Positions 506-12,026 of a stretch of DNA of 64,000 nucleotides are shown piece by piece (within the stretch, counting starts at the first letter, position 1; every line of letters begins with the position of its first letter). A model generated the notes under the pieces. It was not told where the DNA came from. It ran no database searches and saw only the letters and a program-made list of their open reading frames with translations. Origin of the DNA: a virus; the IMG/VR virus record IMGVR_UViG_3300029305_002985, positions 68,092-132,091 of that record. The stretch is one strand, 5' to 3'. The position numbers were made by a program, and so were the translations under genes.

Positions 506-506
506 A

Positions 507-854: not shown

Positions 855-939
855 AGTGTTGTACCTTTCCTTTCATAGATAGAAGATTGATTTGTGGATT
901 GCGGTTTGGGAGAGCCGTACGCTCTCTCCCTCTCTGCTC

Positions 940-1003
940 TTATATTATACCATACTTTGAGCCGTTTGTCAAGGGGTTTTTGAAAAGTTTTTCAAATTTT
1001 TTT
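940..1003 (-). promoter_or_regulatory. early promoter, P1 type: UP-like palindrome TTGAAAA-N-TTTTCAA, -35 TTGACA, 17-nt spacer, TGgTATAAT
   Basis: Reverse complement reads ccTTGACAaacggctcaaagtatggTATAATataag. The -35 is at 967-972 and the -10 at 944-949. A stem-loop (GGGAGAGAGCGTACGGCTCTCCC) lies in the 5' UTR. Confidence 0.6.
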
Positions 1004-1189
1004 TCGCACCGCCTTGCGCTTGCGCTCTCTGTCTTGGTACATTTATATTATACCACAAACGGACGCGGATTGCAAGAGCAATACTGCACAAAATTTAGGT
1101 TGTTTTGTGGGAATTTTTTGTGCAAAATGCCGAGCGAGGTTTGCGCGGAAAAAGTTAGGTAAGGCTAACACCACGCGCAAATCGGCTCT

Positions 1190-1262
1190 GGAGCGACCGC
1201 TCCAGAGCCGGCAAATAAAAAAGGCGCGAGCCGTCGCTCACGCCTTTCCCGCGCGGTTGTGA
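1190..1262 (-). terminator. tandem rho-independent terminators downstream of the 1404 gene
   Basis: Minus-strand hairpins GCCGGCTCTGGAGCGGTCGCTCCAGAGCCG and GGCGTGAGCGACGGCTCGCGCC, the second followed by TTTTTTATTTGCC. Confidence 0.55.
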
Positions 1263-1403
1263 TGGCGTGATAGCCACCACGATAGACGGAGCAGGGGGTT
1301 TCACCCTCACACTCTCTCCCGGTGGCCGCCGTCGCGGTCGGGGGCGATTTCCTTTTTAATCTATCCGTCTATGTAGAGGGGCTTACGCCCCTCTGTGGGT
1401 GGA

Positions 1404-1754
1404 TTACTCGGCATCCTCACCCTCGCCATCAACCCCAAAGTTGAGGGCGAAAGTGGACACCTTCTTCTCCACGGTCTTGGTTACGCGCTTTGCCGCAACC
1501 ATCTTGGTGAGCATAGCCGTGACCTTCTGAATGGTCAGACCATCCATATCCTTTGCAAGCGCATTGAATACCTCGGTGGCGCGCTTGCCCTTGCCATCCG
1601 CGAGAACATCCGCAATCGCGTCAAAGAACTTCTCGTCCTCTGCGTTCTTCTTGGAGTTGGCGGAAATCGCCTTCTTCTCCAACTTTGCGATGCGCTCCTC
1701 GCAGAACTTGATGAGGTCATCGTGACCGCCGATTTCCTCGAACACGGAAATCAT
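1404..1754 (-). CDS. hypothetical early protein, 116 aa, paralog of 507-854. A probable N-terminal extension runs to the ATG at 1808 through an in-frame TAG at 1775-1773.
   Basis: ORF MISVFEEIGGHDD.... Upstream in frame: ATG(1808) GCT ACT GTT GTA AAG GCA AAG GCA CCC ACT TAG AAG GAG CAG TTC GGC AAG ATG(1754). The ATG at 1808 has the same RBS geometry as the paralog (AAAAGGAAGG + 9 nt). Confidence 0.6.
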   Translation of the reverse strand: MISVFEEIGGHDDLIKFCEERIAKLEKKAISANSKKNAEDEKFFDAIADVLADGKGKRATEVFNALAKDMDGLTIQKVTAMLTKMVAAKRVTKTVEKKVSTFALNFGVDGEGEDAE

Positions 1755-1865
1755 CTTGCCGAACTGCTCCTTCTAAGTGGGTGCCTTTGCCTTTACAACA
1801 GTAGCCATAGTAGTGTACCTTCCTTTTCTTATTTTTTTTATTGTCAGCGGCTCTCGCCTTACTGC

Positions 1866-1935
1866 TCTTATATTATACCACATTCCGTGGGGTTTGTCAA
1901 GAGGTTTTGCGAAAAATTTTTATTTTTTTCGCGCC
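1866..1935 (-). promoter_or_regulatory. early promoter P1 type (TTGACA-17-TGgTATAAT)
   Basis: Reverse complement ccTCTTGACAaaccccacggaatgTGgTATAAT. The -35 is at 1895-1900 and the -10 at 1872-1877. An A/T-rich UP-like segment lies upstream. Confidence 0.6.
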
Positions 1936-1953
1936 CTTTGTGGGGGAGAGGGA

Positions 1954-2721
1954 TTAACCCTCTCCCTTGATGGTGAATTTGATACCGCTATCGTTGGGGA
2001 GTTTGCGCTTGTTGGTATAGGGGAAGATATGCTCCTCGCCATCTGCGGAAACTACCTTAAACTCGCGCATAAGGTTGCGCGGAATGGAGCGATATACCTT
2101 GTAGTCGGTGTTCCACTCTGCGCCATTGATGATACAATAGTGCAGAATATCCAACTCAATCTCGGCATCCGCAAGGGCGGTGTGCGCTTCATCAAACTCT
2201 GCGTTCTGCGAGAGGAAACGATATACACTCTCTGCGGTGGTGGCAAAATTGCCACTTTCGGTGAACAGTTTATGCTTTTCGCAAAACTCTTGGTATGCGG
2301 TTTGGAAAGCGATAAACTTGTGGACATATCCGCGAATATCGTGGATTTTCACATTATCAAGCGGATTTGGGGTATGATGCCACTCGGCATTGAACGCGAA
2401 TACGCGCTTGTCAAAGTCGCTATTGAACGCATAGGCATCAGTAATGCCGAACTGTTCAATATCACTTGCGACCTTTGCCGCTACCCATTCCCATTTATGC
2501 TTGGTCATAAGGCGGTTAGCAAGCATATCCTCATAGCGCGCTCTCTTGTCCGCATAATATGCGGTGGAAAAGAGCATCATATTGTTCCATACATCGGTGA
2601 CGATATAGGAACGCTTTGCGACTATAACCTCTCGCTCGGTGTCAAACACACAGTAGCCGAGGTCATAGCAGAACGGCTTTTCAAGATTAGCCGTTTCGGT
2701 GTCAAAGACCATAATGTTCAT
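1954..2721 (-). CDS. DEDDh-family 3'-5' exonuclease (DnaQ/RNase T-like; comparable to T4 DexA-type phage exonucleases)
   Basis: N-terminal Exo I motif MVFDTETANL (D-x-E), central acidic motifs, and C-terminal Exo III motif HTALADAEIEL (H-x4-D). RBS GAGAGGAAA. 255 aa. Confidence 0.75.
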   Translation of the reverse strand: MNIMVFDTETANLEKPFCYDLGYCVFDTEREVIVAKRSYIVTDVWNNMMLFSTAYYADKRARYEDMLANRLMTKHKWEWVAAKVASDIEQFGITDAYAFNSDFDKRVFAFNAEWHHTPNPLDNVKIHDIRGYVHKFIAFQTAYQEFCEKHKLFTESGNFATTAESVYRFLSQNAEFDEAHTALADAEIELDILHYCIINGAEWNTDYKVYRSIPRNLMREFKVVSADGEEHIFPYTNKRKLPNDSGIKFTIKGEG

Positions 2722-2777
2722 CGGGGGTGTTTTCCTCTCTTTCTACCATAGGGGGTAGCCCTCGCTCCCCACTCGGT

Positions 2778-2850
2778 ACTTATATTATACCACATCTTGT
2801 GGCTTTTGTCAAGGGGTTTTTCAAAAGTTTTTTGAAAAATTTTTTCGAGC
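2778..2850 (-). promoter_or_regulatory. early promoter P1 type (TTGACA-17-TGgTATAAT) with UP-like TTGAAAA/TTTTCAA element
   Basis: -35 at 2807-2812 and -10 at 2784-2789 (reverse complement). Same cassette as at 940-1003. Confidence 0.6.
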
Positions 2851-2905
2851 CTTGCAAGGTGGCTTTTTCAAACGAAGCACGAAGCAACTACCGAAGCCCT
2901 CGCCC

Positions 2906-2990
2906 CTTGACATTTATAATTATACCACAAATGCGGGAAAATTGCAATAGGCAAATTGCACAAAGTTTTGCACAAAAATTTGTGCAAATT
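2906..2990 (-). promoter_or_regulatory. second upstream promoter P2 type (TTGCAA-17-TGgTATAAT) plus TTGCACAAAGTTTT motif and palindrome TTGCACAAAAATTTGTGCAA
   Basis: -10 at 2920-2925 and -35 at 2943-2948 (reverse complement). Motif at 2957-2970, 9-bp-arm palindrome at 2969-2988. Confidence 0.5.
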
Positions 2991-2995
2991 ACCAC

Positions 2996-3062
2996 TTGAC
3001 AGGCAAAACGGCTCGTGGCGCAGGACCACGAGCCGGCAAAAAGAGGGCGATTACTCGCCCTC
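2996..3062 (-). terminator. tandem rho-independent terminators downstream of the 3051 gene
   Basis: Minus strand: GAGGGCG-AGTAAT-CGCCCTC followed by TTTTT, then GGCTCGTGG-TCCTGCGC-CACGAGCC followed by GTTTTGCC. Confidence 0.65.
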
Positions 3063-3272
3063 AATTTCCTTCCAGTACTCCTCTTCCTCTTCGTTGGAGT
3101 TGATGTCAAGATAGACAATGTCGTCTTCTGCCGTAACCTCGCCAACCGTGCGGTAGTAGGCATCAATTTCATCTGTATCATTGTTGGGAACAAGGACAAT
3201 ATTGTTACCTTTTCCTTCTCCCATCAATTTGGTGAAAAACGCGTGCATCTCTTTTACAGTATAAACTTTCAT
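3051..3272 (-). CDS. hypothetical acidic early protein, 73 aa
   Basis: ORF with RBS AAGGAGA. Co-transcribed with the AbrB-like gene upstream, since no promoter lies between them. Confidence 0.55.
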   Translation of the reverse strand: MKVYTVKEMHAFFTKLMGEGKGNNIVLVPNNDTDEIDAYYRTVGEVTAEDDIVYLDINSNEEEEEYWKEIEGE

Positions 3273-3316
3273 TTTTCATTCTCCTTTATGTTTTTATGTA
3301 GAGGGCGTTTCCGCCC

Positions 3317-3790
3317 TCAATCATCCTCGTTGCGGATGGCATACTCTGCCGTGCGCACCATTGCGCGCACAAGTTTACTGTCTGCATCTTTGGGGAGAAC
3401 AAGGTATGCGATGGGTTGACATTGGTCACGGATGGGCACGACATAGTGGTCACCAATCTCCATTGCGCTCGTTGCGCAAGTTTCGAGGTGTTTGGGGAAA
3501 GAAGGGTTGTTTCGTCTGTTGACGAACAACAGTTCATCACTCTCGTTATAGAGAGCCACCGCATCTTCGCCAAACTCCATAGCCGCGCTACCATACAGTG
3601 CTTTGAGAATGGATTTGATGTTCTTTTCCTCGGTCACCATATGCTTCTTGAAGCAGACATACTTGCCATCCTCGCTCATATAGATTTCAAGGGGGTCGCC
3701 CTCGCGGATATGGAAATTTCTGCGGATTTCCTTAGGGATAACCACGCGACCGAGGTCATCAATTCTGCGAACAATTCCAGTTGCTTTCAT
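3317..3790 (-). CDS. AbrB/SpoVT-family transcription regulator (N-terminal swapped-hairpin domain plus C-terminal extension)
   Basis: N-terminus MKATGIVRRIDDLGRVVIPKEIRRNFHIREGDPLEIY is the canonical AbrB/MazE/SpoVT DNA-binding motif. 157 aa. Confidence 0.75.
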   Translation of the reverse strand: MKATGIVRRIDDLGRVVIPKEIRRNFHIREGDPLEIYMSEDGKYVCFKKHMVTEEKNIKSILKALYGSAAMEFGEDAVALYNESDELLFVNRRNNPSFPKHLETCATSAMEIGDHYVVPIRDQCQPIAYLVLPKDADSKLVRAMVRTAEYAIRNEDD

Positions 3791-3829
3791 AGTAAATACC
3801 TTCCTTTATGTTGTTATGTATGAGGGGCA

Positions 3830-4291
3830 TTAAAGCCCCTCTTTGATAAGGCGGAACAGGTCAAACAGACCATCGGCATCAACCGCGATACCGCCATTGT
3901 TCACCCACTCTCTGCGGTTGCGCTCCTCATCATCGACAAGGAAGCCGAAGCCCTCTGCCACGGTATATTTGGGAGTGCCGTATGCGAGAATGTGGATTTC
4001 GTCAAACTCAACCGAGGGCAGGTGCTTTGCCAACCACTTGCGCTTGACCTCTGCGACCTCTGCGTTATAGGCATCGGTTGCGTTCTTGGCAAGCCACGAG
4101 AGGACACAGACCTTAACCCCTTGCTTGCGGAGAGCGTTGATATAGCGCGCCATCGTAGCCATATGCACCATCGGCTTGGCTTGCGCGTAGGGGGTTGCGA
4201 TGTGGTTTTCAAGCATTTCGCGCCAACCCTCAACCGCGTAGAGGTCAGCGAAAGTTCCGTCCATATCAAGGTAAATGCGGATTTCGTTCAT
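3830..4291 (-). CDS. HAD-superfamily hydrolase, 5'(3')-deoxyribonucleotidase-like
   Basis: Motif I IYLDMDGTFADL (DxDGT) at the N-terminus. Size and pattern resemble NT5C-type nucleotidases. 153 aa. Confidence 0.6.
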   Translation of the reverse strand: MNEIRIYLDMDGTFADLYAVEGWREMLENHIATPYAQAKPMVHMATMARYINALRKQGVKVCVLSWLAKNATDAYNAEVAEVKRKWLAKHLPSVEFDEIHILAYGTPKYTVAEGFGFLVDDEERNRREWVNNGGIAVDADGLFDLFRLIKEGL

Positions 4292-4315
4292 AGTATGTTC
4301 TCCTTTTCCTTTGGT

Positions 4316-4390
4316 ACTTATATTATACCATACTTTTGGTGGTTTGTCAAGAGGGTTTTCAAAAAAAGTTGCAATCTTTTTTCAAGCAAG
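4316..4390 (-). promoter_or_regulatory. early promoter P1 type (TTGACA-17-TGgTATAAT)
   Basis: -35 at 4345-4350 and -10 at 4322-4327 (reverse complement). Confidence 0.6.
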
Positions 4391-4450
4391 GGTCTGTTTC
4401 TGTTCACTACCCTTCGCGCGTTTGGGTTTCTGTGTCCTTCCTCTCCCCTC

Positions 4451-4520
4451 TTGACATACTAATTATACCACATTCACGGGATTTTGTCAACAGTCAAGTT
4501 GCACAAAGTTTCGCGCGGAA
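4451..4520 (-). promoter_or_regulatory. upstream P2-type promoter plus GTTGCACAAAGTTT motif
   Basis: Reverse complement TTGACA...TGgTATAAT followed by TAGTATGTCAAG. Motif at 4498-4513. Confidence 0.45.
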
Positions 4521-4540
4521 AATGACCGAGGTTTGGTGAT

Positions 4541-4598
4541 AATGCACAAAACGGCACGCGGCGAGCGCCCGCGTGCCGAGCGAAAGAAAGGGCGCGGA
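4541..4598 (-). terminator. tandem terminators downstream of the 4599 gene
   Basis: Minus strand GGACGCGGAGTAATCCGCGCCC followed by TTTCTTTC, then GGCACGCGGGCGCTCGCCGCGTGCC followed by GTTTTGTGC. Confidence 0.55.
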
Positions 4599-4826
4599 TT
4601 ACTCCGCGTCCTCTTCTTCTACCTGTATTACTGCTTCTGTGGAAAAATCGCTCTCCACGGAATTGTGATACATATTTAACTTGCCCTCATTGTAGAGCAT
4701 CATCACTGCATCTTTAAGGGAGCATTCTTCTTCTTCTGCGCACTCTTGCACGAGTTGGCTTTGTTCCTCATCAAGATAACAAGTGTAAGTTACTGTTGCT
4801 TCAACAGTTACCGCAAATCTTGCCAT
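4599..4826 (-). CDS. hypothetical acidic early protein, 75 aa
   Basis: ORF with RBS AAAGGAGAAAAAAC. Preceded by the conserved hairpin-ACATAAAAACATAAAGGAG leader. Confidence 0.55.
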   Translation of the reverse strand: MARFAVTVEATVTYTCYLDEEQSQLVQECAEEEECSLKDAVMMLYNEGKLNMYHNSVESDFSTEAVIQVEEEDAE

Positions 4827-4878
4827 TGTTTTTTCTCCTTTATGTTTTTATGTATCGGCGTGGATTGCTCCGCGCCGA

Positions 4879-5214
4879 TTAAAGAGCCATCATAAAATTC
4901 CACCACCAAACCATCCAGCCGATGAACAAAAGAAAACCTATAATAAGGAAAACACCTCGGCATAAATTTCTTTGGTTCTTTTTTATCTTATATTGCTTCA
5001 TCTTTTGCTCATAATCTTTAAGAGCCGCTTCCCACAATTCTTTGCTTTCATAGTGTCGTGGATAGGGATAGCTGGGTCTAGAAAAGTCTGCGGCTAAATA
5101 TTCCCAACACCAACCAGTTACGACAACAAATATAATTGTGCAAAATAACATCAAGATTGCCATAATTTTTACCCCCAAATCATAATGATAAGATTGTATG
5201 CGTTCATCACCCAC
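4879..5214 (-). CDS. small membrane protein (2 TM). An alternative start at 5163 (MAILMLF...) is coupled to the upstream stop.
   Basis: Hydrophobic segments ILMLFCTIIFVVVTGW and VFLIIGFLLFIGWMVWWW. TAAAAATTATG overlap with the upstream gene. Confidence 0.5.
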   Translation of the reverse strand: MGDERIQSYHYDLGVKIMAILMLFCTIIFVVVTGWCWEYLAADFSRPSYPYPRHYESKELWEAALKDYEQKMKQYKIKKNQRNLCRGVFLIIGFLLFIGWMVWWWNFMMAL

Positions 5215-5420
5215 AGTGCCACATTAAGCACCACCAAGTTGATGCGCCTTGCTTGCCAACAAAATGCCGTTGCGATGGTCGCGCCGATGAAGAACGGAAT
5301 TGTCGCGTTCACGCCACAGATAACCAACACCGCGCAAAGCACATAGATAAGTGCGGTGATGTCGGTCACATCAAAGCGGTATGCGCGGTTGAGTTCAAAG
5401 TAGTTCTTAAATGCACGCAT
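5169..5420 (-). CDS. small membrane protein, 83 aa, 2-3 TM
   Basis: Segments ALIYVLCAVLVICGV and FFIGATIATAFCW. RBS GAGGTG. Its start overlaps the end of the 5407 gene. Confidence 0.55.
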   Translation of the reverse strand: MRAFKNYFELNRAYRFDVTDITALIYVLCAVLVICGVNATIPFFIGATIATAFCWQARRINLVVLNVALWVMNAYNLIIMIWG

Positions 5421-5589
5421 CTTCTAACACCTCGTTTCCATCGCTTTCAAAGATTGCGGCGGTTGTGAAGCCCCAACCGCAACCGCATCTGTAATAACTT
5501 ATTCTCTTGATAGTCCAACCATTTTCTTCATATTCGGTTTCAAAGAGTTTAGGTTGCGCGGTGCTACCGCAGTTAGGACACTTTACCAT
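5407..5589 (-). CDS. zinc-ribbon protein, 60 aa
   Basis: CPNCG ... CGCGWG four-Cys arrangement. Confidence 0.5.
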   Translation of the reverse strand: MVKCPNCGSTAQPKLFETEYEENGWTIKRISYYRCGCGWGFTTAAIFESDGNEVLEDACI

Positions 5590-5590
5590 T

Positions 5591-5776
5591 TTATAACTCT
5601 CCTAACTTGATAACAGAAATAATCACAAAGTCTGTTACCATATTCTCTTTGCTATTATAGTGGTCGGGCAAAGCGGCAAGCCACTCCGCAAGGTCGCGTT
5701 CGTGCCAGATAAAATTATTGCAATCGACCTCAAAGCGGTCAAGACTTGCGGAATAAAGTGTTGCAAGATAGGTCAT
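5591..5776 (-). CDS. hypothetical protein, 61 aa (start MTYLATLYS)
   Basis: The ORF-track upstream extension overlaps the promoter -10 (ATGTGGTATAAT), so the true start is the ATG at 5776, after RBS GAGAGGAGAACATAAAA. Confidence 0.5.
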   Translation of the reverse strand: MTYLATLYSASLDRFEVDCNNFIWHERDLAEWLAALPDHYNSKENMVTDFVIISVIKLGEL

Positions 5777-5802
5777 TTTTATGTTCTCCTCTCTCTTGGT
5801 AT

Positions 5803-5862
5803 TATTATTATACCACATTTGATTGAGTTTGTCAAGGGGTTTTATAAATTTTTTTGGAAGGT
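5803..5862 (-). promoter_or_regulatory. early promoter P1 type (TTGACA-17-TGgTATAAT) for the 5776-to-4879 operon
   Basis: -35 at 5830-5835 and -10 at 5807-5812 (reverse complement). Confidence 0.6.
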
Positions 5863-5896
5863 CTTATCTCCTAGAGCGTACCACGCACTTCCTCCC

Positions 5897-5965
5897 CTTG
5901 ACAATAATATTATATCACATTTGCAGGAAATAGTCAATAGTCAAAATCACCAAAGTTTCGCTCGC
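5897..5965 (-). promoter_or_regulatory. upstream P2-type promoter plus motif variant TCACCAAAGTTT
   Basis: Same cassette family as 2906-2990. CTTGACAATAATATTATATCAC. Confidence 0.4.
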
Positions 5966-5995
5966 AAAAATGGCGGCAACTGGTTAAATTGCACA

Positions 5996-6030
5996 AAACG
6001 GAGCGCGCCGACCCTGCGCGCTCCGCTCGG
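5996..6030 (-). terminator. rho-independent terminator downstream of the 6145 gene
   Basis: Minus strand GGAGCGCGCAGGGTCGGCGCGCTCC followed by GTTTTGTGCAA. Confidence 0.55.
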
Positions 6031-6144
6031 AACTTTAGGCAAAAATAAAAAAGCCTAGACACGAGAAATTCGGTCTAGAAATTGTGGAAGAGGTCTACTT
6101 CGCGGAAAACCGACGCTCGCACGATCGCTTGCGCCGTCCAGCGA

Positions 6145-6444
6145 TTACTGGAAGTGTTTAATCACATCTTGTGCATTGTATTCATTTTCGTCTTTCTCCA
6201 AGATAATAATTGTTCTTTCAATTTCGGCACAGTTGCCTAAATTTTGGATGGTTGAAATAACTTTCGAAATCTCTTCCGCACAATCATTTTTTGTCCCGTC
6301 AGAATGGAAGAGTAGCCGCGCGGACTCTTTGCAAAATAACGCGTGAACCGCGAAATCCGTGGCGGCAACTGCCTCCCACTCAAGAGGGACAAGAGAAGAC
6401 TCAAAAGGTGTTAGCACAAGAGCGTGGATTAAATGATACTCCAT
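6145..6444 (-). CDS. hypothetical early protein, 99 aa
   Basis: ORF with RBS AAAAGGAGG. Promoter TTGACA-17-TATAAT directly upstream at 6450-6508. Confidence 0.6.
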   Translation of the reverse strand: MEYHLIHALVLTPFESSLVPLEWEAVAATDFAVHALFCKESARLLFHSDGTKNDCAEEISKVISTIQNLGNCAEIERTIIILEKDENEYNAQDVIKHFQ

Positions 6445-6449
6445 CGCTT

Positions 6450-6508
6450 TGACCTCCTTTTATCTCTTTGTATTATTATTATAATATAAATTTTTCAAAA
6501 TGTCAAAT
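6450..6508 (-). promoter_or_regulatory. promoter TTGACA-17-TATAAT
   Basis: Reverse complement atTTGACAttttgaaaaatttatatTATAATaataatacaaagagataaaaggagg. Confidence 0.6.
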
Positions 6509-6509
6509 G

Positions 6510-6549
6510 CGGCAGACCTAGGTTTTTCTTCCTTGACCTAGGTCTGCCG
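6510..6549 (-). terminator. 14-bp perfect-stem hairpin (terminator for the 6683-6557 operon)
   Basis: gcggcagacctagg-N14-cctaggtctgccgc. On the minus strand it is followed by ATTTGACATTTTG. Confidence 0.55.
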
Positions 6550-6556
6550 CACTTTC

Positions 6557-6661
6557 AAAATTCATCGTAGTGTTCAGCCGCATCTTTCTCATCCTTTGGG
6601 ATAGCGCCCCAAAAGATGCCAAGCACCGCCGCAAAAATAAAGATTACCGCGATTTCCATAG
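6557..6661 (-). CDS. 34-aa hydrophobic membrane peptide
   Basis: MEIAVIFIFAAVLGIFWGAIPKDEKDAAEHYDEF with RBS GGAGAAAACT. Below the ORF-track size cutoff. Confidence 0.4.
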
Positions 6662-6682
6662 TTTTCTCCTTTTGAAGGGCGA

Positions 6683-7189
6683 TTACTCGCCCTTCTGCAA
6701 TTTAAGATATTCTTTTACCATTTCGGCAACATCTACCGAACTACCGCGCGTTTGTGCCATTCTGATTTTTTCTTCAAAGGGGTGCGCCTTGCGCCATTCA
6801 AGTGCAATTTGCTCTTGTTCAAGATTGTAAGCAATACATTGTTCGTATTCTTCTTCAAAGTTGAGTTCACGGAAGCGGTCTGTCAAGGTGTCATTTTTGG
6901 TTTCACAAGTGACAATGTTGATGCTTGCCCACACCATTATCACAAAGCAAGCGACCGCGCCAACCGCGAAGCGCCAATCCCAATAGGTGTCTGCCAAACA
7001 AGCGAAAGTGAGGGTTGCGATGAACAAAGGCAACCAAAGGTACAAGCAAAAGTGTTGAAGCCACTCGTTGCGGTTAATGGCTTTTTCAGTCTGCTGGTCA
7101 ACCTCTTTTGCAAAAGCCTTTTCCTCATTGTCAAAGCCATTGGTGTTGGGGTTAAAGGTCTTGTAGGTGAAGCAACGAGAGAGTGTCAT
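6683..7189 (-). CDS. membrane protein, 168 aa, 2 TM
   Basis: Segments LYLWLPLFIATLTFACL and AVGAVACFVIMVWASINIV. Confidence 0.6.
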   Translation of the reverse strand: MTLSRCFTYKTFNPNTNGFDNEEKAFAKEVDQQTEKAINRNEWLQHFCLYLWLPLFIATLTFACLADTYWDWRFAVGAVACFVIMVWASINIVTCETKNDTLTDRFRELNFEEEYEQCIAYNLEQEQIALEWRKAHPFEEKIRMAQTRGSSVDVAEMVKEYLKLQKGE

Positions 7190-7262
7190 TGTTCTGTTCT
7201 CCTTTTGATGTAGTGTTCAAGAAGGGCTCTGTATCTGTTGCTCCGTCACTGGCGGAATGTTT

Positions 7263-7360
7263 GTGTCATCCCCTCTTGACACTTATATTATATCATAAAT
7301 GCAGGATTTCGTCAATAGGCAAGTTGCACAAACTTTTGGCGCGGAAATTGTGCAAGGTGC
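7263..7360 (-). promoter_or_regulatory. P2-type promoter (TTGACG-17-TGaTATAAT) with upstream GTTGCACAAACTTTTGG motif and inverted partner ATTGTGCAAGG
   Basis: Reverse complement cctaTTGACGaaatcctgcatttatgaTATAATataagtgtcaag. Motif at 7324-7340. Confidence 0.5.
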
Positions 7361-7376
7361 TAGGCTACAGTAAAAT

Positions 7377-7430
7377 CGCGCCGTGGCAAACGGTCACGGC
7401 GCGGCGAGAGTTTCCTCTCAACCGCGCCGC
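7377..7430 (-). terminator. tandem hairpins downstream of the 7435 gene
   Basis: gcgccgtg-gcaaacggt-cacggcgc and gcggcg...cgccgc. On the minus strand they are followed by GATTTTACTG. Confidence 0.45.
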
Positions 7431-7434
7431 GCGC

Positions 7435-7746
7435 TTAATTCATTTTGAAGATGGGGTCAATGTCAATCGGCACAGGGCAGTTCTCTCCATAGCACTCAAT
7501 GGTGATGGAGTAGCGCTTCGTGCGCCAAAATTCGCGGTTCCACGGCTTGTAGTAGACAACCATAGAGATTTTGTGCTTGCTTCGGTTGTGGTCGATGGGA
7601 CAGACTTTTTCAGCAAAACTGCACACCTGCTCGTTTGCGCCCTTGCGCTTTTTGAGTATTTCGATGGCTTTAGCTCGTGCCGTGGTGAAATCGGTGAAGG
7701 CGCGCTTTTCGTGATGGTAGTTGACCATAAATACAGACATTTTCAT
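7435..7746 (-). CDS. hypothetical protein, 103 aa, third gene of the MazF-like operon
   Basis: ORF 17 nt downstream of the MazF-like gene, with RBS AAAAGGAGAACATAACA. Confidence 0.55.
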   Translation of the reverse strand: MKMSVFMVNYHHEKRAFTDFTTARAKAIEILKKRKGANEQVCSFAEKVCPIDHNRSKHKISMVVYYKPWNREFWRTKRYSITIECYGENCPVPIDIDPIFKMN

Positions 7747-7762
7747 TGTTATGTTCTCCTTT

Positions 7763-8110
7763 TCAAAATAGATTGAGTTGAATTTTGAGCGCTTTGCTTA
7801 CTCTTGCCATTTCCTCGGCGGTGGCTTCGCCCATATACTTGGACAGTCGGCACTTGTCAATGGTGCGGACTTGCTCACAGAGGATAGTGCCTTTGATGGC
7901 GCGTCCCTCAATGGGATAGAGGGTTGCGTGGGTGGGAATAGGTTTCTTGACTTGGGAGGTTATGGAGCAAACCGTGACCGTGGTGCTTCGCGCGTTGTTA
8001 ATGTCATTTGACACAATCAATACAGGGCGCAAACCGCCTTGCTCGCTACCCCTTGCAGGGGAGAGGTCAGCGTAGAAAATCTGACCTCTCTTGATAGGGT
8101 TATTCATCAT
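7763..8110 (-). CDS. PemK/MazF-family endoribonuclease toxin homolog, about 115 aa
   Basis: MMNNPIKRGQIFYADLSPARGSEQGGLRPVLIVSNDINNARSTTVTVCSITS...ATLYPIEGRAIKGTILCEQVRTIDKCRL matches the MazF/PemK/Kid fold motifs. Start taken as the ATG at 8110; the longer ORF-track extension is unlikely. Confidence 0.7.
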   Translation of the reverse strand: MMNNPIKRGQIFYADLSPARGSEQGGLRPVLIVSNDINNARSTTVTVCSITSQVKKPIPTHATLYPIEGRAIKGTILCEQVRTIDKCRLSKYMGEATAEEMARVSKALKIQLNLF

Positions 8111-8321
8111 AGTCAAACCCCTCAACCACCTTGCGCTCGGTATGCGCCTCACAGTGGTACATAACCTCACCCGTCCAACGATTGACCACATCGCACACAT
8201 CGGCGTGTCCGCAATCCACACGGATATAGCCGTATGCTTTTGCATCGTCAAGTTCCTCAAAGTCCGCCTTGTGCTTGCCATCAAGCAGTACCATAAGGTC
8301 GCAGGTTTCAATGTTCATCAT
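8100..8321 (-). CDS. Cys/His-rich 73-aa protein overlapping the MazF-like start by 11 nt; candidate non-canonical antitoxin
   Basis: Overlap geometry typical of antitoxin-toxin pairs. Motif DCGHADVCDV...YHCEAH. No MazE/AbrB-like fold is recognisable. Confidence 0.5.
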   Translation of the reverse strand: MMNIETCDLMVLLDGKHKADFEELDDAKAYGYIRVDCGHADVCDVVNRWTGEVMYHCEAHTERKVVEGFDYDE

Positions 8322-8364
8322 AATATGTTCTCCTTTTCTTGTCGGGGTCTTACCCCTTTGACAC

Positions 8365-8440
8365 TTATATTATACCACATTTGTGGCAGTTTGTCAAGGG
8401 GTTTTTCAAACTTTCTTTGAAAAATTTTTTATCAACAGTG
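8365..8440 (-). promoter_or_regulatory. early promoter P1 type (TTGACA-17-TGgTATAAT) with UP-like palindrome
   Basis: -35 at 8392-8397 and -10 at 8369-8374 (reverse complement). Confidence 0.6.
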
Positions 8441-8496
8441 AGTGGGGTTTGTTCCATTACCTTGCAAGTACCCCATATTCTTTTACTTCCTGTCCC

Positions 8497-8580
8497 CTTG
8501 ACACTTATATTATATCACATTTTCGGGATAAATGCAATAGGCAGAATAGACAAAGTTTCGCACAAGTTTTTGTGCAAAAT
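8497..8580 (-). promoter_or_regulatory. upstream P2-type promoter plus GACAAAGTTTCG motif and palindrome GCACAAGTTTTTGTGC
   Basis: CTTGACACTTATATTATATCAC. Palindrome at 8559-8576. Confidence 0.45.
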
Positions 8581-8594
8581 GCTAGCCCACCCAC

Positions 8595-8648
8595 AAAACG
8601 GCTCGGCGCGACCCACGCCGAGCCGCTGAACAAAGAAAGGTTGGGCTT
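8595..8648 (-). terminator. tandem rho-independent terminators downstream of the 8647 gene
   Basis: Minus strand GGTTGGGCATAAGCCCAACC followed by TTTCTTTGTT, then GGCTCGGCGTGGGTCGCGCCGAGCC followed by GTTTTGTG. Confidence 0.6.
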
Positions 8649-8925
8649 ATGCCCAACCCCTCTCTTTTTTAATTTGTTCGTAGCGCTCTGCCTTTTCGCG
8701 CTCGATTTTTTCTTTATCATACACGCGACACTTGATGCCCGTGTAGCCATACTTTTTGAGGTCTGCGCCGCTCCAATAGCGCTTTGCGCATATCTTCTTG
8801 ACGCCTTCCATTTGGTAGTGGCTCTTGTTCTCACAGTATGCCGCTATGCTCGGCACTTCAATGATTGCGCTGACCGCGCGATAGCCTTTGTCGCTTACGA
8901 GAGTGACCTGAATTTGTTTGCTCAT
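8647..8925 (-). CDS. hypothetical basic protein, 92 aa
   Basis: ORF in an ATGA-overlapped operon with the 8922-9116 gene. Confidence 0.55.
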   Translation of the reverse strand: MSKQIQVTLVSDKGYRAVSAIIEVPSIAAYCENKSHYQMEGVKKICAKRYWSGADLKKYGYTGIKCRVYDKEKIEREKAERYEQIKKERGWA

Positions 8926-9116
8926 TTGTTCTTACCTCTCTTTCTCTTTTTGTATGCCTTATAGATGGCACGACCGATGGGGATTGCAAGCATTGGGGAG
9001 AAGATTGCGCAGACCGCAATGGTGAGTTTTTCATCCCACGCATATTGGTCATCAATCAAAATGCAAATCCAAGTGTTAAGGAGTATCCAACCGAGAATAA
9101 TTGCAAGTGCTATCAT
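8922..9116 (-). CDS. small membrane protein, 64 aa, 2 TM
   Basis: Segments IALAIILGWILLNTWICILI and AVCAIFSPMLAIPIG, with a basic tail. Confidence 0.55.
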   Translation of the reverse strand: MIALAIILGWILLNTWICILIDDQYAWDEKLTIAVCAIFSPMLAIPIGRAIYKAYKKRKRGKNK

Positions 9117-9130
9117 CTTATGTACCTCTC

Positions 9131-9200
9131 TTTCTGTACTTTTATTATATCATATTTGCTTGCTCTTATCAATAGGCATTATGCACAAAGTTTTGGGGCG
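9131..9200 (-). promoter_or_regulatory. promoter TTGATA-17-TGaTATAAT plus TTATGCACAAAGTTTTGGGG motif
   Basis: Reverse complement cctaTTGATAagagcaagcaaatatgaTATAATaaaagtacag. Confidence 0.5.
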
Positions 9201-9207
9201 GGACTTG

Positions 9208-9516
9208 TCAACAATAGACAAGTCCCATATCGCGCCAGCGCAACACGCTGATTTGATTGCACGCGCGCCCGACTTCCAGCGCTTCGCGCTTCGTTGCTAC
9301 GCGGTGGCTTTTGTCGATATAGTAAACACCTTCGCTGAACCAAACACCGCAGTTGCCGCTATATGCCTTTACTGCATTGATGGCTTCGCGTGCGGTGCGG
9401 CACTCGATGCCCTCGGTGGCTACTTGGTAGCCTGTCTTATGGGTGATGCACTTGCCGCCTTTAAGCGTCAAGCCGTCATTGTCACGCAGTTTGAGAATGG
9501 TGCGAATGTTAATCAT
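9208..9516 (-). CDS. hypothetical protein, 102 aa (start MINIRTILKL)
   Basis: ATG at 9516 preceded by GGTTTACAGTT. The longer ORF-track version runs into the upstream promoter. Confidence 0.5.
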   Translation of the reverse strand: MINIRTILKLRDNDGLTLKGGKCITHKTGYQVATEGIECRTAREAINAVKAYSGNCGVWFSEGVYYIDKSHRVATKREALEVGRACNQISVLRWRDMGLVYC

Positions 9517-9559
9517 AACTGTAAACCTCTTGTATGTATTCAGTAGGGGTTGTACTTCC

Positions 9560-9626
9560 CCCTTCTGTACCTTAATTATACCACACTTTGCACCTTTTGT
9601 CAATAGACAAGTTGCACAAAGTTGAG
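9560..9626 (-). promoter_or_regulatory. promoter TTGACA-17-TGgTATAAT plus GTTGCACAAAGTT motif
   Basis: Reverse complement tctaTTGACAaaaggtgcaaagtgTGgTATAATtaagg. Confidence 0.55.
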
Positions 9627-9642
9627 GTTGGGGTTTTGGTTA

Positions 9643-9810
9643 TTATCCCCAAACCTCTGCTTCTGCTTGCGCGGCAGTGGTGTAAACAGTGGTGGCAAGC
9701 ACGCGCCCGTTGTTTGCTTGTGCGAACTCTTGTGCCGCGGCTTCAGTGGTGAACATAGCAAGAAGGTCAGCCTCAAACTCGGTGTTTTCCCATACTGCGT
9801 AGATAGTCAT
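9643..9810 (-). CDS. hypothetical 55-aa protein
   Basis: MTIYAVWENTEFEADLLAMFTTEAAAQEFAQANNGRVLATTVYTTAAQAEAEVWG with RBS GAGAGG. Below the ORF-track cutoff. Confidence 0.45.
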   Translation of the reverse strand: MTIYAVWENTEFEADLLAMFTTEAAAQEFAQANNGRVLATTVYTTAAQAEAEVWG

Positions 9811-9845
9811 TTTTTGTACCTCTCATTTATGTATTTGGAAGGTCT

Positions 9846-9900
9846 TTCCCCTTCCTTCTGTAATAATTATACTACTTTTTGCCTCATTTGTCAAGCCTTT
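9846..9900 (-). promoter_or_regulatory. promoter TTGACA-17-TATAAT
   Basis: Reverse complement ggcTTGACAaatgaggcaaaaagtagTATAATtattacagaaggaagg. Confidence 0.55.
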
Positions 9901-10018
9901 TTCAGGATTTTTTCTTCGTCATTTTGCACAAAATTTCGCGCGATTTTTATTTGATAGTTGTGCATTCTGCCCAACATAGGGCCCGCGCGGCCGCACACGA
10001 AAGCACAAGGCACTGTGC

Positions 10019-10336
10019 TTAATCAGCACAGTACCCTCTGCGATAGTTATTATTTATTGCGGTGAAGAGGAAGTGCGGCAGCCGCTCAATGCGAAAGTGT
10101 CTCTTCACTTGCCCCACAGTAGGACAGTACATAGTGATGATTTCCTCTTGTTGATTGCGGATAATCATCACACCAGTGGAAGTGAGATAGAGAGTGACAG
10201 CCTCGCGCCATTCTCTTCTATCCTCTTCTTTGATAGTCATCACTGTTCTACCAAAGCCAACCTCTGTGGCAATTCTTGCATACCTGTCAAGCCTGTCTTG
10301 CTCCATGTGTTTTGTAAGAGTTACTCTCATCATCAT
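10019..10336 (-). CDS. hypothetical protein, about 105 aa (start MMMRVTL)
   Basis: ATG at 10336 lies 5 nt after RBS GAGGTGA. It is co-transcribed with the 10347-10508 gene (10-nt gap). Confidence 0.5.
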   Translation of the reverse strand: MMMRVTLTKHMEQDRLDRYARIATEVGFGRTVMTIKEEDRREWREAVTLYLTSTGVMIIRNQQEEIITMYCPTVGQVKRHFRIERLPHFLFTAINNNYRRGYCAD

Positions 10337-10346
10337 GGCGCTCACC

Positions 10347-10508
10347 TCACGCGTTCAGCGCCTTAAGAATTTCTCTGCGCTCTGCTTCAAGTTCGCGGCG
10401 TCTGTTCCAGTTCTCGTTCCACTTGTTGTAAGCATCGCACATCTCGATTGCCCACAGTTCGTTCTCGATTGCTTCAAGTCTTGCTTCCATCTTTGCTCTG
10501 TCCATCAT
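10347..10508 (-). CDS. 53-aa coiled-coil-like protein
   Basis: MMDRAKMEARLEAIENELWAIEMCDAYNKWNENWNRRRELEAERREILKALNA with RBS AAAAGAGGTAAAG. Confidence 0.45.
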   Translation of the reverse strand: MMDRAKMEARLEAIENELWAIEMCDAYNKWNENWNRRRELEAERREILKALNA

Positions 10509-10555
10509 TGTTCTTTACCTCTTTTTATGTATTTGGAAGGGGTCTCTCTCCCTCT

Positions 10556-10645
10556 TTCCATAATTATTATACCACATTGGGTGGCTCTTGTCAAGTGGCA
10601 AGATGCACAAACTTTTCATTGTTTGTTCGTGCATCTTGCACAAGG
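10556..10645 (-). promoter_or_regulatory. promoter TTGACA-17-TGgTATAAT plus imperfect inverted pair of the GCACAAAC motif
   Basis: Reverse complement ccacTTGACAagagccacccaatgTGgTATAAT. ATGCACAAAC...GTTCGTGCAT at 10604-10640. Confidence 0.5.
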
Positions 10646-10661
10646 TTTATTAATCCTCGTA

Positions 10662-10787
10662 CTTGTAAAGGAATGCGCCGTGCTTGCGCGTTTCCACTTG
10701 CATCTCTTGCTTGCTCATACCCATACAACACACTTTGTGTCCATCCCCAAACACGAACCAGTACCACTTCTTTGCCATTTTAATTTA
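10662..10787 (-). CDS. 41-aa peptide
   Basis: MAKKWYWFVFGDGHKVCCMGMSKQEMQVETRKHGAFLYKYED with RBS GAGAGG. Confidence 0.35.
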
Positions 10788-10814
10788 CCTCTCTTGTATG
10801 TATTTTTGAGGTTG

Positions 10815-10870
10815 GGCTCTTGCCCTTCCTTCTGTAATTATTATACCATAAAAGCAGGTGTTTGTCAATA
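10815..10870 (-). promoter_or_regulatory. promoter TTGACA-17-TGgTATAAT
   Basis: Reverse complement cctaTTGACAaacacctgcttttatggTATAATaattacagaagg. Confidence 0.55.
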
Positions 10871-10899
10871 GGTTTTTTGAAATATTTTTATTGTTTACA

Positions 10900-10985
10900 A
10901 TTTGTTCACAATTTCAGGATTAACATAAAGTTTACAAATTATTAACAATTCGTTCACAAATTATTTACAAATTGTTTACAATTTA
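10900..10985. repeat. array of seven 11-bp-periodic direct repeats GTT(T/C/A)ACAA(A/T)TT; iteron- or operator-like
   Basis: TTTACAA/TTCACAA/TTAACAA units start at 10904, 10915, 10931, 10942, 10954, 10965 and 10976. Same core as the array at 430-478 but in opposite orientation. Confidence 0.6.
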
Positions 10986-11018
10986 AAAACCGCACCGCGC
11001 CGGGTGTTCGCGGTGCGG
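10985..11018 (-). terminator. rho-independent terminator, minus orientation
   Basis: Stem ccgcaccgcg/cgcggtgcgg with 9-nt loop, flanked by AAAAA at 10985-10989 (TTTTT on the minus strand). Confidence 0.6.
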
Positions 11019-11273: not shown

Positions 11274-12026
11274 TTAATCATCTAACCCCATTTCAATTCT
11301 CAATACAACCCCATCTTCACTTTCATCAAAAGCCTTTAAACTTTTTACCATCTCGCTTTGATAATGCGGCCACACAGCCACAATCTCTCTCGCAGCTTTC
11401 GTATCTCTAAATCCACTCTTTATCCACTGCCATAATGCCGCAAATGGCTTCCACTTGCCGCCTATCTTAACCATCTCTCCAACATGGCAGAAACCAAATG
11501 CACGAGGCGGCATATGGGTCACGATATCCGCGCGGTTGCGGAAGACTCTAAAATTCTTCCATCTCTCTTGCAATTCATCCTTAACCCAAAATCCTGAATA
11601 AATGCGCGGCCCTTCAAAACTAATCCCCCAGCAGGTGCCGCGAATATCGGGGCGATGGAACCAGATACACTCATGCGCGAATGCGGCAAGGGCGCCGCCG
11701 TGACTATACCCAATCACCACGATCTTTTGCCACTTATACTCCAAATCAGTGAGGCTCTTGGTTTCCGTAATCTTCTTAATGATGATGTCCTCAACTTCTT
11801 TCCATGCGGCAAGGAAACCCCCGTGCACTCTATAGGGAATCTTCATGTCTTTATAAGGCTTGCGCCAATAGCTGAAGTTGCGGCGCCAATCAACATCTCC
11901 ATTGCTACCCTCAAAATAGATATAAAGCGCGCGGCCGTCCTCGACGAACGCATAGTTTACATGATTGCCACACTCTTGATATTTGACATCATAAGCGCAA
12001 TTTCTGAATAATTTTTCAAAGGTCAT
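11274..12026 (-). CDS. class-3 (fungal-type) lipase / alpha-beta hydrolase
   Basis: Nucleophile-elbow motif VVIGYSHGGALAAF (GxSxG) within a lipase_3-like arrangement. RBS AAAGGAGA. Standard code, no in-frame TAG. 250 aa. Confidence 0.65.
   Translation of the reverse strand: MTFEKLFRNCAYDVKYQECGNHVNYAFVEDGRALYIYFEGSNGDVDWRRNFSYWRKPYKDMKIPYRVHGGFLAAWKEVEDIIIKKITETKSLTDLEYKWQKIVVIGYSHGGALAAFAHECIWFHRPDIRGTCWGISFEGPRIYSGFWVKDELQERWKNFRVFRNRADIVTHMPPRAFGFCHVGEMVKIGGKWKPFAALWQWIKSGFRDTKAAREIVAVWPHYQSEMVKSLKAFDESEDGVVLRIEMGLDD

What the first reader, a model, noticed from the sequence alone, without database searches (positions are those of the whole stretch)
7435..8321. MazF/PemK-like endoribonuclease in a three-gene early operon with a non-canonical Cys/His-rich upstream partner
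The toxin homolog (7763-8110) lacks a recognisable MazE/PemI/AbrB-fold antitoxin. Instead, an 11-nt overlapping upstream gene (8100-8321) encodes a 73-aa protein with DCGH...CD...YHCEAH spacing, suggestive of metal binding. A third unknown gene (7435-7746) follows 17 nt downstream. The only swapped-hairpin AbrB/MazE-like protein nearby is encoded separately at 3317-3790. A phage early-region MazF could shut off host translation, cleave host defence transcripts, or be neutralised by a new type of antitoxin. The pairing appears unusual and may be novel.
Basis: partly seen in the sequence, partly recalled or inferred. Interest (0 to 1): 0.6.

Follow-up and report, generated by a model that had tools for sequence, protein, structure and literature searches.

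The report
Phage MazF toxin with novel partner
A gut phage that reads the TAG stop codon as an amino acid carries, in its early genes, an intact MazF RNA-cutting toxin. The toxin gene is coupled to a small acidic protein of a previously undescribed family, which is most likely its inhibitor and is not a metal-binding protein.

Summary
Three minus-strand genes lie between a perfect sigma-70 promoter (8397-8369) and a strong hairpin (7437-7387): 73 aa (8100-8321), MazF (7763-8110) and 103 aa (7435-7746). The MazF is genuine (Pfam PF02452, E 2e-30) and 50% identical to B. cereus MazF. It keeps the catalytic Arg28 and Thr51.

The 73-aa protein defines a family of about 148 sequence clusters with no Pfam, PHROG, NCBIfam or PADLOC match. 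All examined members come from phage contigs, up to about 138 kb, that share this early-region gene order.
- Its Cys and His residues are not conserved, so the metal-binding idea is rejected. They are Leu, Thr/Val and Phe in most members.
- The gene sits directly upstream of MazF in 14 of 17 distinct contexts, down to 25% identity, while the flanking genes change.
- Against a strict pairing, alleles of the two genes reshuffle, and each gene occasionally occurs alone.

The 103-aa gene is specific to the closer relatives and is not a core part. The nearby "AbrB-like" 157-aa protein is a SpoVT-type regulator.

Best reading (confidence about 0.55): a toxin-antitoxin-like cassette with a new inhibitor family that lacks a DNA-binding domain. 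No binding or activity was tested.

The parts
8402..8421 (-). A/T-rich palindromic element (TTCAAAGAAAGTTTGAAAAA) directly upstream of the -35 box. It is either an UP-element-like sequence or an operator.
   Evidence: One search finds 2 matches in the window at up to 3 mismatches, against 0.16 expected by chance. The other match is at 2817-2836, upstream of another early promoter. The same element precedes the 73-aa gene homologue in L071 and a promoter in L002. Its function was not tested.
8369..8397 (-). Sigma-70/SigA-type promoter of the operon (TTGACA-17-TATAAT, with TG before the -10).
   Evidence: scores it 12 of 12 matches. It is one of 12 perfect promoters on the minus strand of 1-11 kb.
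8100..8321 (-). 73-aa acidic protein ("A"; pI 4.5, net charge about -11). It is the founding member here of an undescribed family and the putative MazF inhibitor.
   Evidence: Pfam, PHROG, PADLOC and NCBIfam give no significant match. The family has 148 clusters. AlphaFold2 with 118 sequences gives pLDDT 91, with strands at 9-13, 16-21, 42-47 and 53-58, a helix at 24-36 and a tail at 59-73 of pLDDT about 60. The gene lies directly upstream of MazF in 14 of 17 distinct contexts. dN/dS is 0.10-0.30.
7763..8110 (-). MazF/PemK endoribonuclease homologue (115 aa, pI 9.7). It is translationally coupled to the upstream gene by an 11-nt overlap.
   Evidence: PF02452 scores E 2.1e-30. It is 50% identical to B. 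cereus MazF 7bxy. Arg28 and Thr51 align with the catalytic Arg25 and Thr48 (PMC7354611). The GSEQGGxRPV motif and Thr51 are invariant in 12 phage orthologues.
7435..7746 (-). 103-aa basic protein (pI 9.5) of unknown function. It is the third gene of the unit, is specific to the closer relatives, and is not part of the conserved pair.
   Evidence: It has 11 homologous clusters only. It is present in the close clade and L069 but absent from L067, L072-L078, L079 and L080. It has no family or PDB match. dN/dS is 0.07-0.36.
7387..7437 (-). GC-rich hairpin at the end of the operon. It overlaps the stop codon of the 103-aa gene and is a probable terminator or 3' stabiliser.
   Evidence: One search gives -39.4 kcal/mol and z = -3.55, with 1 of 200 shuffles folding as well. 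The U-tract is weak, so the terminator scan did not call it. The next promoter lies at 7315-7287.

Best explanation
The conserved unit is a two-gene cassette of the toxin-antitoxin type, carried in the early region of a TAG-recoded Clostridia-type siphophage distantly related to Phass-1.

How it most likely works:
- A strong host-RNA-polymerase promoter drives the small acidic protein A and, coupled to it by overlapping stop and start codons, a catalytically competent MazF endoribonuclease.
- A is most likely a direct protein inhibitor of this MazF. It would be a single-domain antitoxin with no DNA-binding module, so the operon is not autoregulated.
- A would act on the conserved RNA-binding and catalytic groove rather than on allele-specific surfaces. 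Its floppy acidic tail may contribute, but this is uncertain.
- MazF, once in excess or freed from A, would cut host and/or phage RNA during infection. The purpose could be host shut-off, temporal control or exclusion of competing phages.

What is shown: the gene architecture, MazF family membership with catalytic residues, the predicted fold of A, purifying selection, and conserved adjacency across deep divergence.

What is inferred: A-MazF binding, inhibition, and the role of the cassette in infection.

The 103-aa gene is a passenger specific to the closer relatives.
For: 1. Architecture. The genes overlap by 11, 8 or 4 nt in the close clade. In the distant clade a 22-26 nt gap carries a strong ribosome-binding site. 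Charges are opposite, pI 4.5 against 9.7.
2. Conserved adjacency. The pair stays adjacent from 100% down to 25% identity of A, while the neighbours change. At least six different downstream genes and several upstream genes were seen.
3. Independent anchor. In 80 related loci fetched through the 102-aa gene, both genes are rare and they co-occur adjacently (Fisher p = 0.018).
4. Alternative partner. In L230 a different 96-aa ORF fills the same promoter-ORF-hairpin-RBS-MazF slot. This argues that the slot itself is functionally tied to MazF.
5. MazF looks active. Arg28 and Thr51 are present and invariant in all orthologues.
7. All genes are under purifying selection.
8. There is precedent for non-canonical phage proteins that bind MazF, namely AimX and YosL (PMC10769878).
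Against: - No binding or neutralisation was tested. A complex prediction was not possible.
- A and MazF alleles reshuffle. Window against L012 gives A 93% and MazF 63%. Window against L069 gives A 40% and MazF 92%. L074 against L076 gives A 100% and MazF 53%. This is unlike tightly co-evolving cognate pairs.
- A occurs without an adjacent MazF in L002, L081/L082 and L071.
- One related phage has MazF with its own promoter and no A within 2.5-5 kb (L156/L291).
- Most phage MazF homologues elsewhere have no evident upstream partner.
- All A-bearing contigs share the same early-region gene order, which suggests one phage lineage. Adjacency may therefore be partly inherited synteny.
- The Dmd resemblance is weak, and Foldseek finds nothing significant in the PDB.
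- In the distant clade the tail codons also form an RNA hairpin, so the tail sequence is not purely under protein constraint.
Confidence: 0.55

Rival explanations
1. A and MazF are functionally independent early genes that are neighbours by inherited gene order. MazF would be a solo phage endoribonuclease for host shut-off that needs no antitoxin in a lytic cycle. A would do something else, for example neutralise a host defence such as the host's own MazF, in the manner of T4 Dmd or phi3T AimX/YosL.
For: - A is found without MazF in L002, L081/L082 and possibly L262. MazF is found without A in L156/L291.
- Alleles of the two genes reshuffle freely.
- Solo MazF-like genes are common in phages.
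- Every A-bearing contig examined shares the same early-region gene order, which suggests a single phage lineage.
- The fold of A is closest, though weakly, to a phage anti-toxin that targets host nucleases.
Against: - Stop and start codons overlap in five allelic variants, which indicates coupled translation.
- Adjacency survives heavy turnover of the flanking genes and divergence to 25% identity.
- The two genes co-occur significantly in an independently anchored sample (p = 0.018).
- A second, different small ORF occupies the same slot before MazF in L230.
Confidence: 0.25
2. A is a positive partner of MazF rather than an inhibitor. It could be a specificity or targeting subunit, or a chaperone.
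For: - Conserved coupling and co-occurrence fit this reading as well.
- In the window's lineage A diverges less than MazF. For example, A is 93% and MazF 63% between the window and L012. Antitoxins usually evolve faster than their toxins, so this is atypical for an antitoxin.
Against: - MazF family enzymes are autonomous homodimers in every solved case matched here.
- A strongly acidic partner facing a basic RNA-binding protein fits competition with RNA better.
- MazF exists without A in L156.
Confidence: 0.1
3. The real antitoxin is another protein. One candidate is the downstream 103-aa protein, in reverse gene order as in HigBA. The other is the AbrB-fold 157-aa protein at 3317-3790 acting in trans.
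For: - The 103-aa gene is co-transcribed and under purifying selection.
- The 157-aa protein has a swapped-hairpin N-terminal domain that matches PF04014 (E 1.3e-9). An AbrB-domain protein of 142-157 aa was present in every related locus whose fetched DNA reached that part of the early region.
Against: - The 103-aa protein is basic like MazF (pI 9.5). It is absent from most lineages that keep A-MazF.
- The 157-aa protein is best matched by SpoVT (PDB 2ro5/2w1t at E 2e-18; the N-terminal part of TIGR02851 at E 8e-22). It carries a roughly 100-aa C-terminal domain, which marks it as a transcription regulator.
- The antitoxins of the closest solved MazFs, the Bacillus and Staphylococcus type, are RHH proteins rather than AbrB. 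This rests on my own knowledge of the 4ME7 structure.
Confidence: 0.05
4. The 73-aa protein is a Cys/His metal-binding, zinc-type protein, and that site is central to its function.
For: The window protein has 4 Cys and 4 His. C7, C43, H56 and C57 are kept within the closest clade, roughly 11-15 clusters.
Against: - Across 118 members these positions are Leu (105 of 118), Thr/Val/Ala, Glu and Phe. C37 and H39 vary even within the close clade.
- In the model, residues 43 and 57 are cross-strand neighbours in the beta3-beta4 hairpin, and residue 7 lies just before beta1. The substitution pattern therefore looks like core packing.
- No zinc-ribbon or metal-site family matches.
Confidence: 0.04

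Closest known systems
Bacillus/Staphylococcus-type MazEF (EndoA-EndoAI; PDB 4ME7, 4MDX, 7BXY, 4MZM)
   Same: The toxin is a full-length homologue: 50% identical to B. cereus MazF, with the catalytic Arg and Thr and the GSEQGGxRPV loop. The upstream small acidic gene is coupled to the toxin gene, which is the classic type II order.
   Different: The upstream protein is not an RHH or AbrB MazE. It has no sequence match. Its predicted core is beta-beta-alpha-beta-beta. It has no DNA-binding domain, and it lacks the MxxxYxEM helix motif that MazE, AimX and YosL use (PMC10769878; compared by eye). The operon sits behind a constitutive-looking phage early promoter, not an autoregulated one.
T4 Dmd, a phage-encoded antitoxin of RnlA/LsoA (PDB 5HY3)
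   Different: Sequence identity is only 8%, and Foldseek does not recover the match. Dmd targets host HEPN toxins and is not encoded next to a toxin. Here the partner is a phage-encoded MazF. Homology is not established.
phi3T/SPbeta AimX and YosL, phage proteins that bind and inactivate host MazF
   Same: They set a precedent that phages of Firmicutes encode non-canonical proteins that neutralise a Bacillus-type MazF (PMC10769878).
   Different: AimX and YosL mimic the C-terminal helix of MazE and act on the host's MazF. A shows no such similarity and is paired with the phage's own MazF.
PHROG 1936, 'MazF-like growth inhibitor' of phages
   Same: The window MazF belongs to it (E 3e-31). Such genes occur in 103 INPHARED records.
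   Different: In the examples inspected (Perkons, FP_Brigit, NatCom_42228) no antitoxin is annotated, and in 78 of 80 IMG/VR loci the A family is absent. The A-MazF cassette was seen only in contigs that share this early-region gene order. A is absent from INPHARED.

Membership tests
PemK/MazF toxin (PF02452) | Full-length profile match above the curated threshold | tested here: met
   105.6 bits against a cut-off of 23.1, covering residues 7-112 on profile positions 1-109 of 109. Full-length alignments to solved MazF/EndoA chains score E about 1e-24.
PemK/MazF toxin (PF02452) | Catalytic Arg (Arg25) and Thr (Thr48) of Bacillus MazF | tested here: met
   Arg28 and Thr51 align to them. Both are invariant in 12 phage orthologues. 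Their roles are taken from PMC7354611.
PemK/MazF toxin (PF02452) | Sequence-specific endoribonuclease activity and toxicity | not testable with these tools
   The UACAU motif is not significantly avoided in sense strands (Markov z = -1.7 in the late region). The specificity is unknown.
Type II toxin-antitoxin module | Small partner gene immediately upstream on the same strand and co-translated | tested here: met
   The genes overlap by 11 nt in the window and by 4-11 nt in five alleles of the close clade. The distant clade has a 22-26 nt gap with a ribosome-binding site.
Type II toxin-antitoxin module | Partner and toxin co-occur across genomes | tested here: met
   They are adjacent in 14 of 17 distinct A contexts. 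The independently anchored sample gives Fisher p = 0.018. Exceptions exist in both directions.
Type II toxin-antitoxin module | Antitoxin binds and neutralises the toxin | not testable with these tools
No multimer tool was available.
Type II toxin-antitoxin module | Antitoxin carries a DNA-binding domain and autoregulates the operon | tested here: not met
   There is no HTH, RHH, AbrB or Phd match. The protein has pI 4.5. The promoter is a consensus early promoter.
MazE / AbrB swapped-hairpin or RHH antitoxins | Sequence or fold match of the 73-aa protein | tested here: not met
T4 Dmd-like phage antitoxin | Shared fold and homology | tested here: inconclusive
Cys/His metal-binding (zinc) small protein | Conserved set of ligand residues | tested here: not met
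   Only H17 is conserved (115 of 118). C7 is Leu in 105, C43 is Thr/Val/Ala, H56 is Glu and C57 is Phe.
SpoVT/AbrB transcription regulators (the 157-aa protein at 3317-3790) | N-terminal swapped-hairpin domain matching SpoVT | tested here: met
   PDB 2ro5 and 2w1t score E about 2e-18. TIGR02851 residues 1-54 score E 8e-22, and TIGR01439 is above its cut-off. The C-terminal domain was not analysed.

The most novel reading that the evidence does not exclude
The A family is a new class of generalist MazF inhibitor. It would be a single-domain, Dmd-like protein that plugs the conserved catalytic groove and so tolerates MazF alleles only 53-63% identical. This would let these TAG-recoded phages do two things with one protein: keep their own MazF weapon in check, and disarm the host's chromosomal MazEF abortive-infection response. 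It would also explain why A persists in relatives that have lost MazF.
Probability: 0.2. Interest if true: 0.7.

Novelty: new variant of a known kind. Interest (0 to 1): 0.5.

Why it matters
- If A neutralises MazF, it adds a structurally new antitoxin class to one of the best-studied toxin families. This class has no DNA-binding domain and is, so far, seen only in phages.
- It would also give a handle on why many phages carry MazF-like "growth inhibitor" genes, whose role in infection has not been tested.
- A broad-specificity MazF inhibitor would be a useful tool, and an example of phage counter-defence against MazEF.
- The setting is a clade of uncultured Clostridia phages that read TAG as sense. 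It links toxin biology to a group whose early takeover programme is unknown.
- If A is unrelated to MazF, the finding reduces to an ordinary solo phage MazF next to an uncharacterised gene.

Tried and rejected
- AlphaFold2 with the 13-sequence alignment gave pLDDT 48.7 and was discarded. The 118-sequence alignment fixed this.
- Foldseek against the PDB found no match with E <= 0.001.
- Foldseek against BFVD found only uncharacterised small phage proteins, with best E 6.5e-3.
- The afdb50 library was unavailable.
- DNA searches of INPHARED with the locus and the late region found nothing. tblastn with two A-family members also found nothing.
- The genome-contig scan with MazF returned only relatives of 35-60% identity, mostly about 45% and mostly cyanobacteria, Acidobacteria and Bacteroidota. 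It was uninformative about origin.
- Large repeat proteins hit by the A profile (P0031, P0035, P0039) belong to unrelated repeat families and were judged spurious.
- I tested whether the 103-aa protein is a paralogue of A. hhalign gave probability 2% and E 0.024, so this was rejected as unsupported.
- I tested whether the 96-aa L230 protein is homologous to A. hhalign gave E 0.057, so this is not established.
- Avoidance of the Bacillus MazF motif UACAU in phage sense strands was not significant.
- The portal-anchored sample could not reach the cassette within the 10-kb flank limit and gave no information.
- The wide alignment A2 was too divergent for pattern scans.
- Rfam found no RNA family in the window.

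Full report
**1. The observation**

The minus strand of 7435-8321 carries three ORFs exactly as described.
- The 73-aa gene runs 8100-8321.
- The 115-aa gene runs 7763-8110. Its ATG overlaps the first gene by 11 nt (gactATGATGAATAAccc).
- The 103-aa gene runs 7435-7746. It starts 16 nt after the stop of the second gene and has its own AAGGAG ribosome-binding site.

A perfect TTGACA-17-TATAAT promoter with an extended -10 lies at 8397-8369. A GC-rich hairpin of -39.4 kcal/mol (z = -3.55) spans 7437-7387. The next consensus promoter is at 7315-7287. The three genes therefore form one transcription unit.

**2. The setting**

- The minus-strand region 1-11 kb holds 12 perfect sigma-70 promoters. 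That is the look of a phage early region read by host RNA polymerase.
- The plus-strand genes from about 12 kb onward give long ORFs only if TAG is read as sense. Examples are 28882-36345 (2487 aa) and 36454-41829 (1791 aa).
- The window contains no tRNA gene.
- The portal-like protein at 16760-18391 is 42% identical to that of Phage Phass-1. Phass-1 is a 136-kb TAG-recoded gut phage with a predicted Clostridia host (PMC10607447).
- The exact trio proteins occur on 21 metagenomic contigs of up to 138,670 bp.
- No INPHARED record matches the locus at the DNA level.

**3. The toxin**

- The 115-aa protein is an unambiguous MazF/PemK. Pfam PF02452 scores E 2.1e-30 over its full length, and PHROG 1936 scores E 3e-31.
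- It is 50% identical to B. cereus MazF.
- Arg28 and Thr51 align with Arg25 and Thr48, the residues shown by mutation to be needed for catalysis in Bacillus MazFs (PMC7354611).
- These residues and the GSEQGGxRPV loop are invariant in 12 orthologues from related phages.
- dN/dS is 0.09-0.39.

**4. The 73-aa partner (A)**

- It matches nothing in Pfam, PHROGs, PADLOC, NCBIfam or PDB sequences.
- A single-sequence search found 13 close clusters.
- A profile search of 1.84 billion representatives, followed by a second word-indexed search, widened the family to 148 clusters of 66-82 aa.
- Invariant positions are A19, G51 and E52. Near-invariant positions are D8, G15, H17, D20, A27, N47 and T50.
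- The Cys and His residues that prompted the metal-binding idea are not family features. C7 is Leu in 105 of 118 members, C43 is Thr/Val/Ala, H56 is Glu, C57 is Phe and H60 is Lys. C37 and H39 vary even among the closest relatives.
- With 118 sequences AlphaFold2 gives a confident model (pLDDT 91). Strands lie at 9-13, 16-21, 42-47 and 53-58, a helix at 24-36, and a low-confidence acidic tail at 59-73.
- Residues 43 and 57 are cross-strand neighbours in the model, so the Cys residues look like core substitutions.
- Foldseek finds nothing significant in the PDB and only uncharacterised small phage proteins in BFVD.

**5. Is A tied to MazF?**

Evidence for:
- The protein is acidic (pI 4.5) against a basic MazF (pI 9.7).
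- Stop and start codons overlap by 11, 8 or 4 nt in five close alleles. In the distant clade a 22-26 nt spacer carries a strong ribosome-binding site.
- A sits directly upstream of MazF in 14 of 17 distinct genomic contexts, down to 25% identity.
- The downstream neighbour changes across those contexts. It is the 103-aa gene, or genes of 133, 142, 100 or 87 aa, or a nucleoside deoxyribosyltransferase. The upstream neighbours change too.
- An unbiased sample was anchored on the unrelated 102-aa gene, taking 80 IMG/VR loci with 5 kb on each side. It gave both genes in 2 loci, A only in 3, MazF only in 2 and neither in 73 (Fisher p = 0.018).
- One of the "MazF-only" loci (L230) has a different 96-aa ORF in the same slot. 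It has the same promoter, the same hairpin over the stop codon and the same ribosome-binding site arrangement. It shares only a TTGEV motif with A.

Evidence against:
- Alleles reshuffle. Window against L012 gives A 93% and MazF 63%. Window against L069 gives A 40% and MazF 92%. L074 against L076 gives identical A and MazF 53%.
- A stands alone in L002 (with its own terminator), in L081/L082 (the L074 arrangement minus MazF) and in L071 (MazF 0.9 kb away).
- L156 has MazF behind its own promoter with no A nearby.
- All A-bearing contigs share the same early-region gene order, which suggests one lineage. Inherited gene order therefore contributes to the adjacency.

**6. The other two candidates**

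- The 103-aa gene has only 11 homologous clusters and is basic (pI 9.5). It is missing from most lineages that keep A-MazF. It is a passenger specific to the closer relatives, and its function is unknown.
- A suspected similarity between the 103-aa protein and A was not significant.
- The 157-aa protein at 3317-3790 has an AbrB-type N-terminal domain. Its best matches are SpoVT (PDB 2ro5/2w1t at E 2e-18; TIGR02851 N-terminal region at E 8e-22). It carries a further domain of about 100 aa, so it is a phage SpoVT/AbrB-like regulator rather than a MazE.

**7. Mechanism**

The best-supported reading (about 0.55) is a toxin-antitoxin-type cassette. A would be a direct inhibitor of the phage's own MazF, lacking a DNA-binding domain and made in step with the toxin from an early promoter. 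Allele shuffling then implies that A recognises the conserved groove of MazF rather than variable surfaces.

Binding, inhibition and the role in infection (host shut-off, timing or exclusion of other phages) are inferences. The main rival (about 0.25) is that the two genes are independent neighbours, with A perhaps aimed at a host defence. A motif-avoidance test for the Bacillus UACAU site was not significant.

**8. Comparison and novelty**

- Phage MazF-like genes are already catalogued. PHROG 1936 covers them, and 103 INPHARED records and 154 IMG/VR places carry one. Most have no recognisable antitoxin. A MazF without MazE is therefore not unusual in a phage.
- What is new is the A family and its conserved coupling to MazF in this lineage.
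- Non-canonical phage proteins that bind MazF are known (AimX and YosL; PMC10769878). Phage single-domain anti-toxins are also known (Dmd; PMC8266594). A shares sequence with none of them.
- I rate this a new variant of a known kind, with interest 0.5.

Noticed in passing
window 12100-64000 (+ strand), e.g. 28882-36345 and 36454-41829: The late genes are interrupted by in-frame TAG codons. Reading TAG as sense roughly doubles the total length of ORFs of at least 200 aa (8,573 to 18,672 aa) and yields ORFs of 2487 and 1791 aa. The early minus-strand genes, including the trio, are open in the standard code. The window has no tRNA gene.
   Followed up: partly
window 1-11000 (- strand): Twelve perfect TTGACA-17-TATAAT promoters, most with an extended -10 TG, punctuate the early region. 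Overall 41 promoter-like sites were found against 18.9 expected.
   Followed up: partly
window 8402-8421 and 2817-2836 (- strand); also L071 and L002: The A/T-rich palindrome TTCAAAGAAAGTTTGAAAAA sits immediately upstream of the -35 box of two early promoters (2 matches against 0.16 expected). It recurs before the A homologue in L071. It may be an UP element or an operator, possibly for the SpoVT-like protein.
   Followed up: partly
L072:4197-4222, L074:4198-4226, L077, L079, L080, L081:2697-2722, L230:5691-5710: In the distant clade an RNA hairpin straddles the stop codon of the A gene, with the stop in the loop, just before the ribosome-binding site of the next gene. Four different arm sequences all pair: GGTAGAGCC/GGCTCTACC, GGGTGGCGGA/TCCGCCCC, GTGGATAGA/TCTATCCAC and GAGGGCGA/TCGCCCTC. 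It is present even where MazF is missing (L081). It may be an intra-operon attenuator or an RNA stabiliser.
   Followed up: partly
L230:5411-5701: A 96-aa ORF occupies the A slot before a MazF in a 130-kb related contig. It is not detectably homologous to A, sharing only a TTGEV motif. It may be an alternative MazF partner.
   Followed up: partly
window 3317-3790 (- strand): A phage-encoded SpoVT/AbrB-like regulator of 157 aa. An AbrB-domain protein of 142-157 aa is present in every related locus whose fetched DNA reached that part of the early region. It hints at a spore-forming Clostridia host.
   Followed up: partly
window 16760-18391 (+ strand): The portal-like protein is 42% identical to Phage Phass-1 (OQ749652) and about 31% identical to 134-142 kb Enterococcus siphophages. 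This places the window in a Phass-like group.
   Followed up: partly
window 11274-12026 (- strand) and 43676-45100 (+ strand): The window encodes a class-3 lipase domain protein (PF01764, E 2.4e-12). It also encodes a protein with an Mtd_N (major tropism determinant N-terminal) domain, which suggests a receptor-binding protein.
   Followed up: no
protein P0033 (121 aa; metagenomic): One A-family member carries a C-terminal Cys-rich extension (CPRC...CECGC) that looks like a zinc ribbon. This is a domain fusion, not the ancestral state.
   Followed up: no
L071:932-1705: In one related phage MazF follows a DUF8033 gene and is overlapped by a 45-aa basic ORF. The A homologue sits 0.9 kb downstream behind its own promoter.
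   Followed up: no
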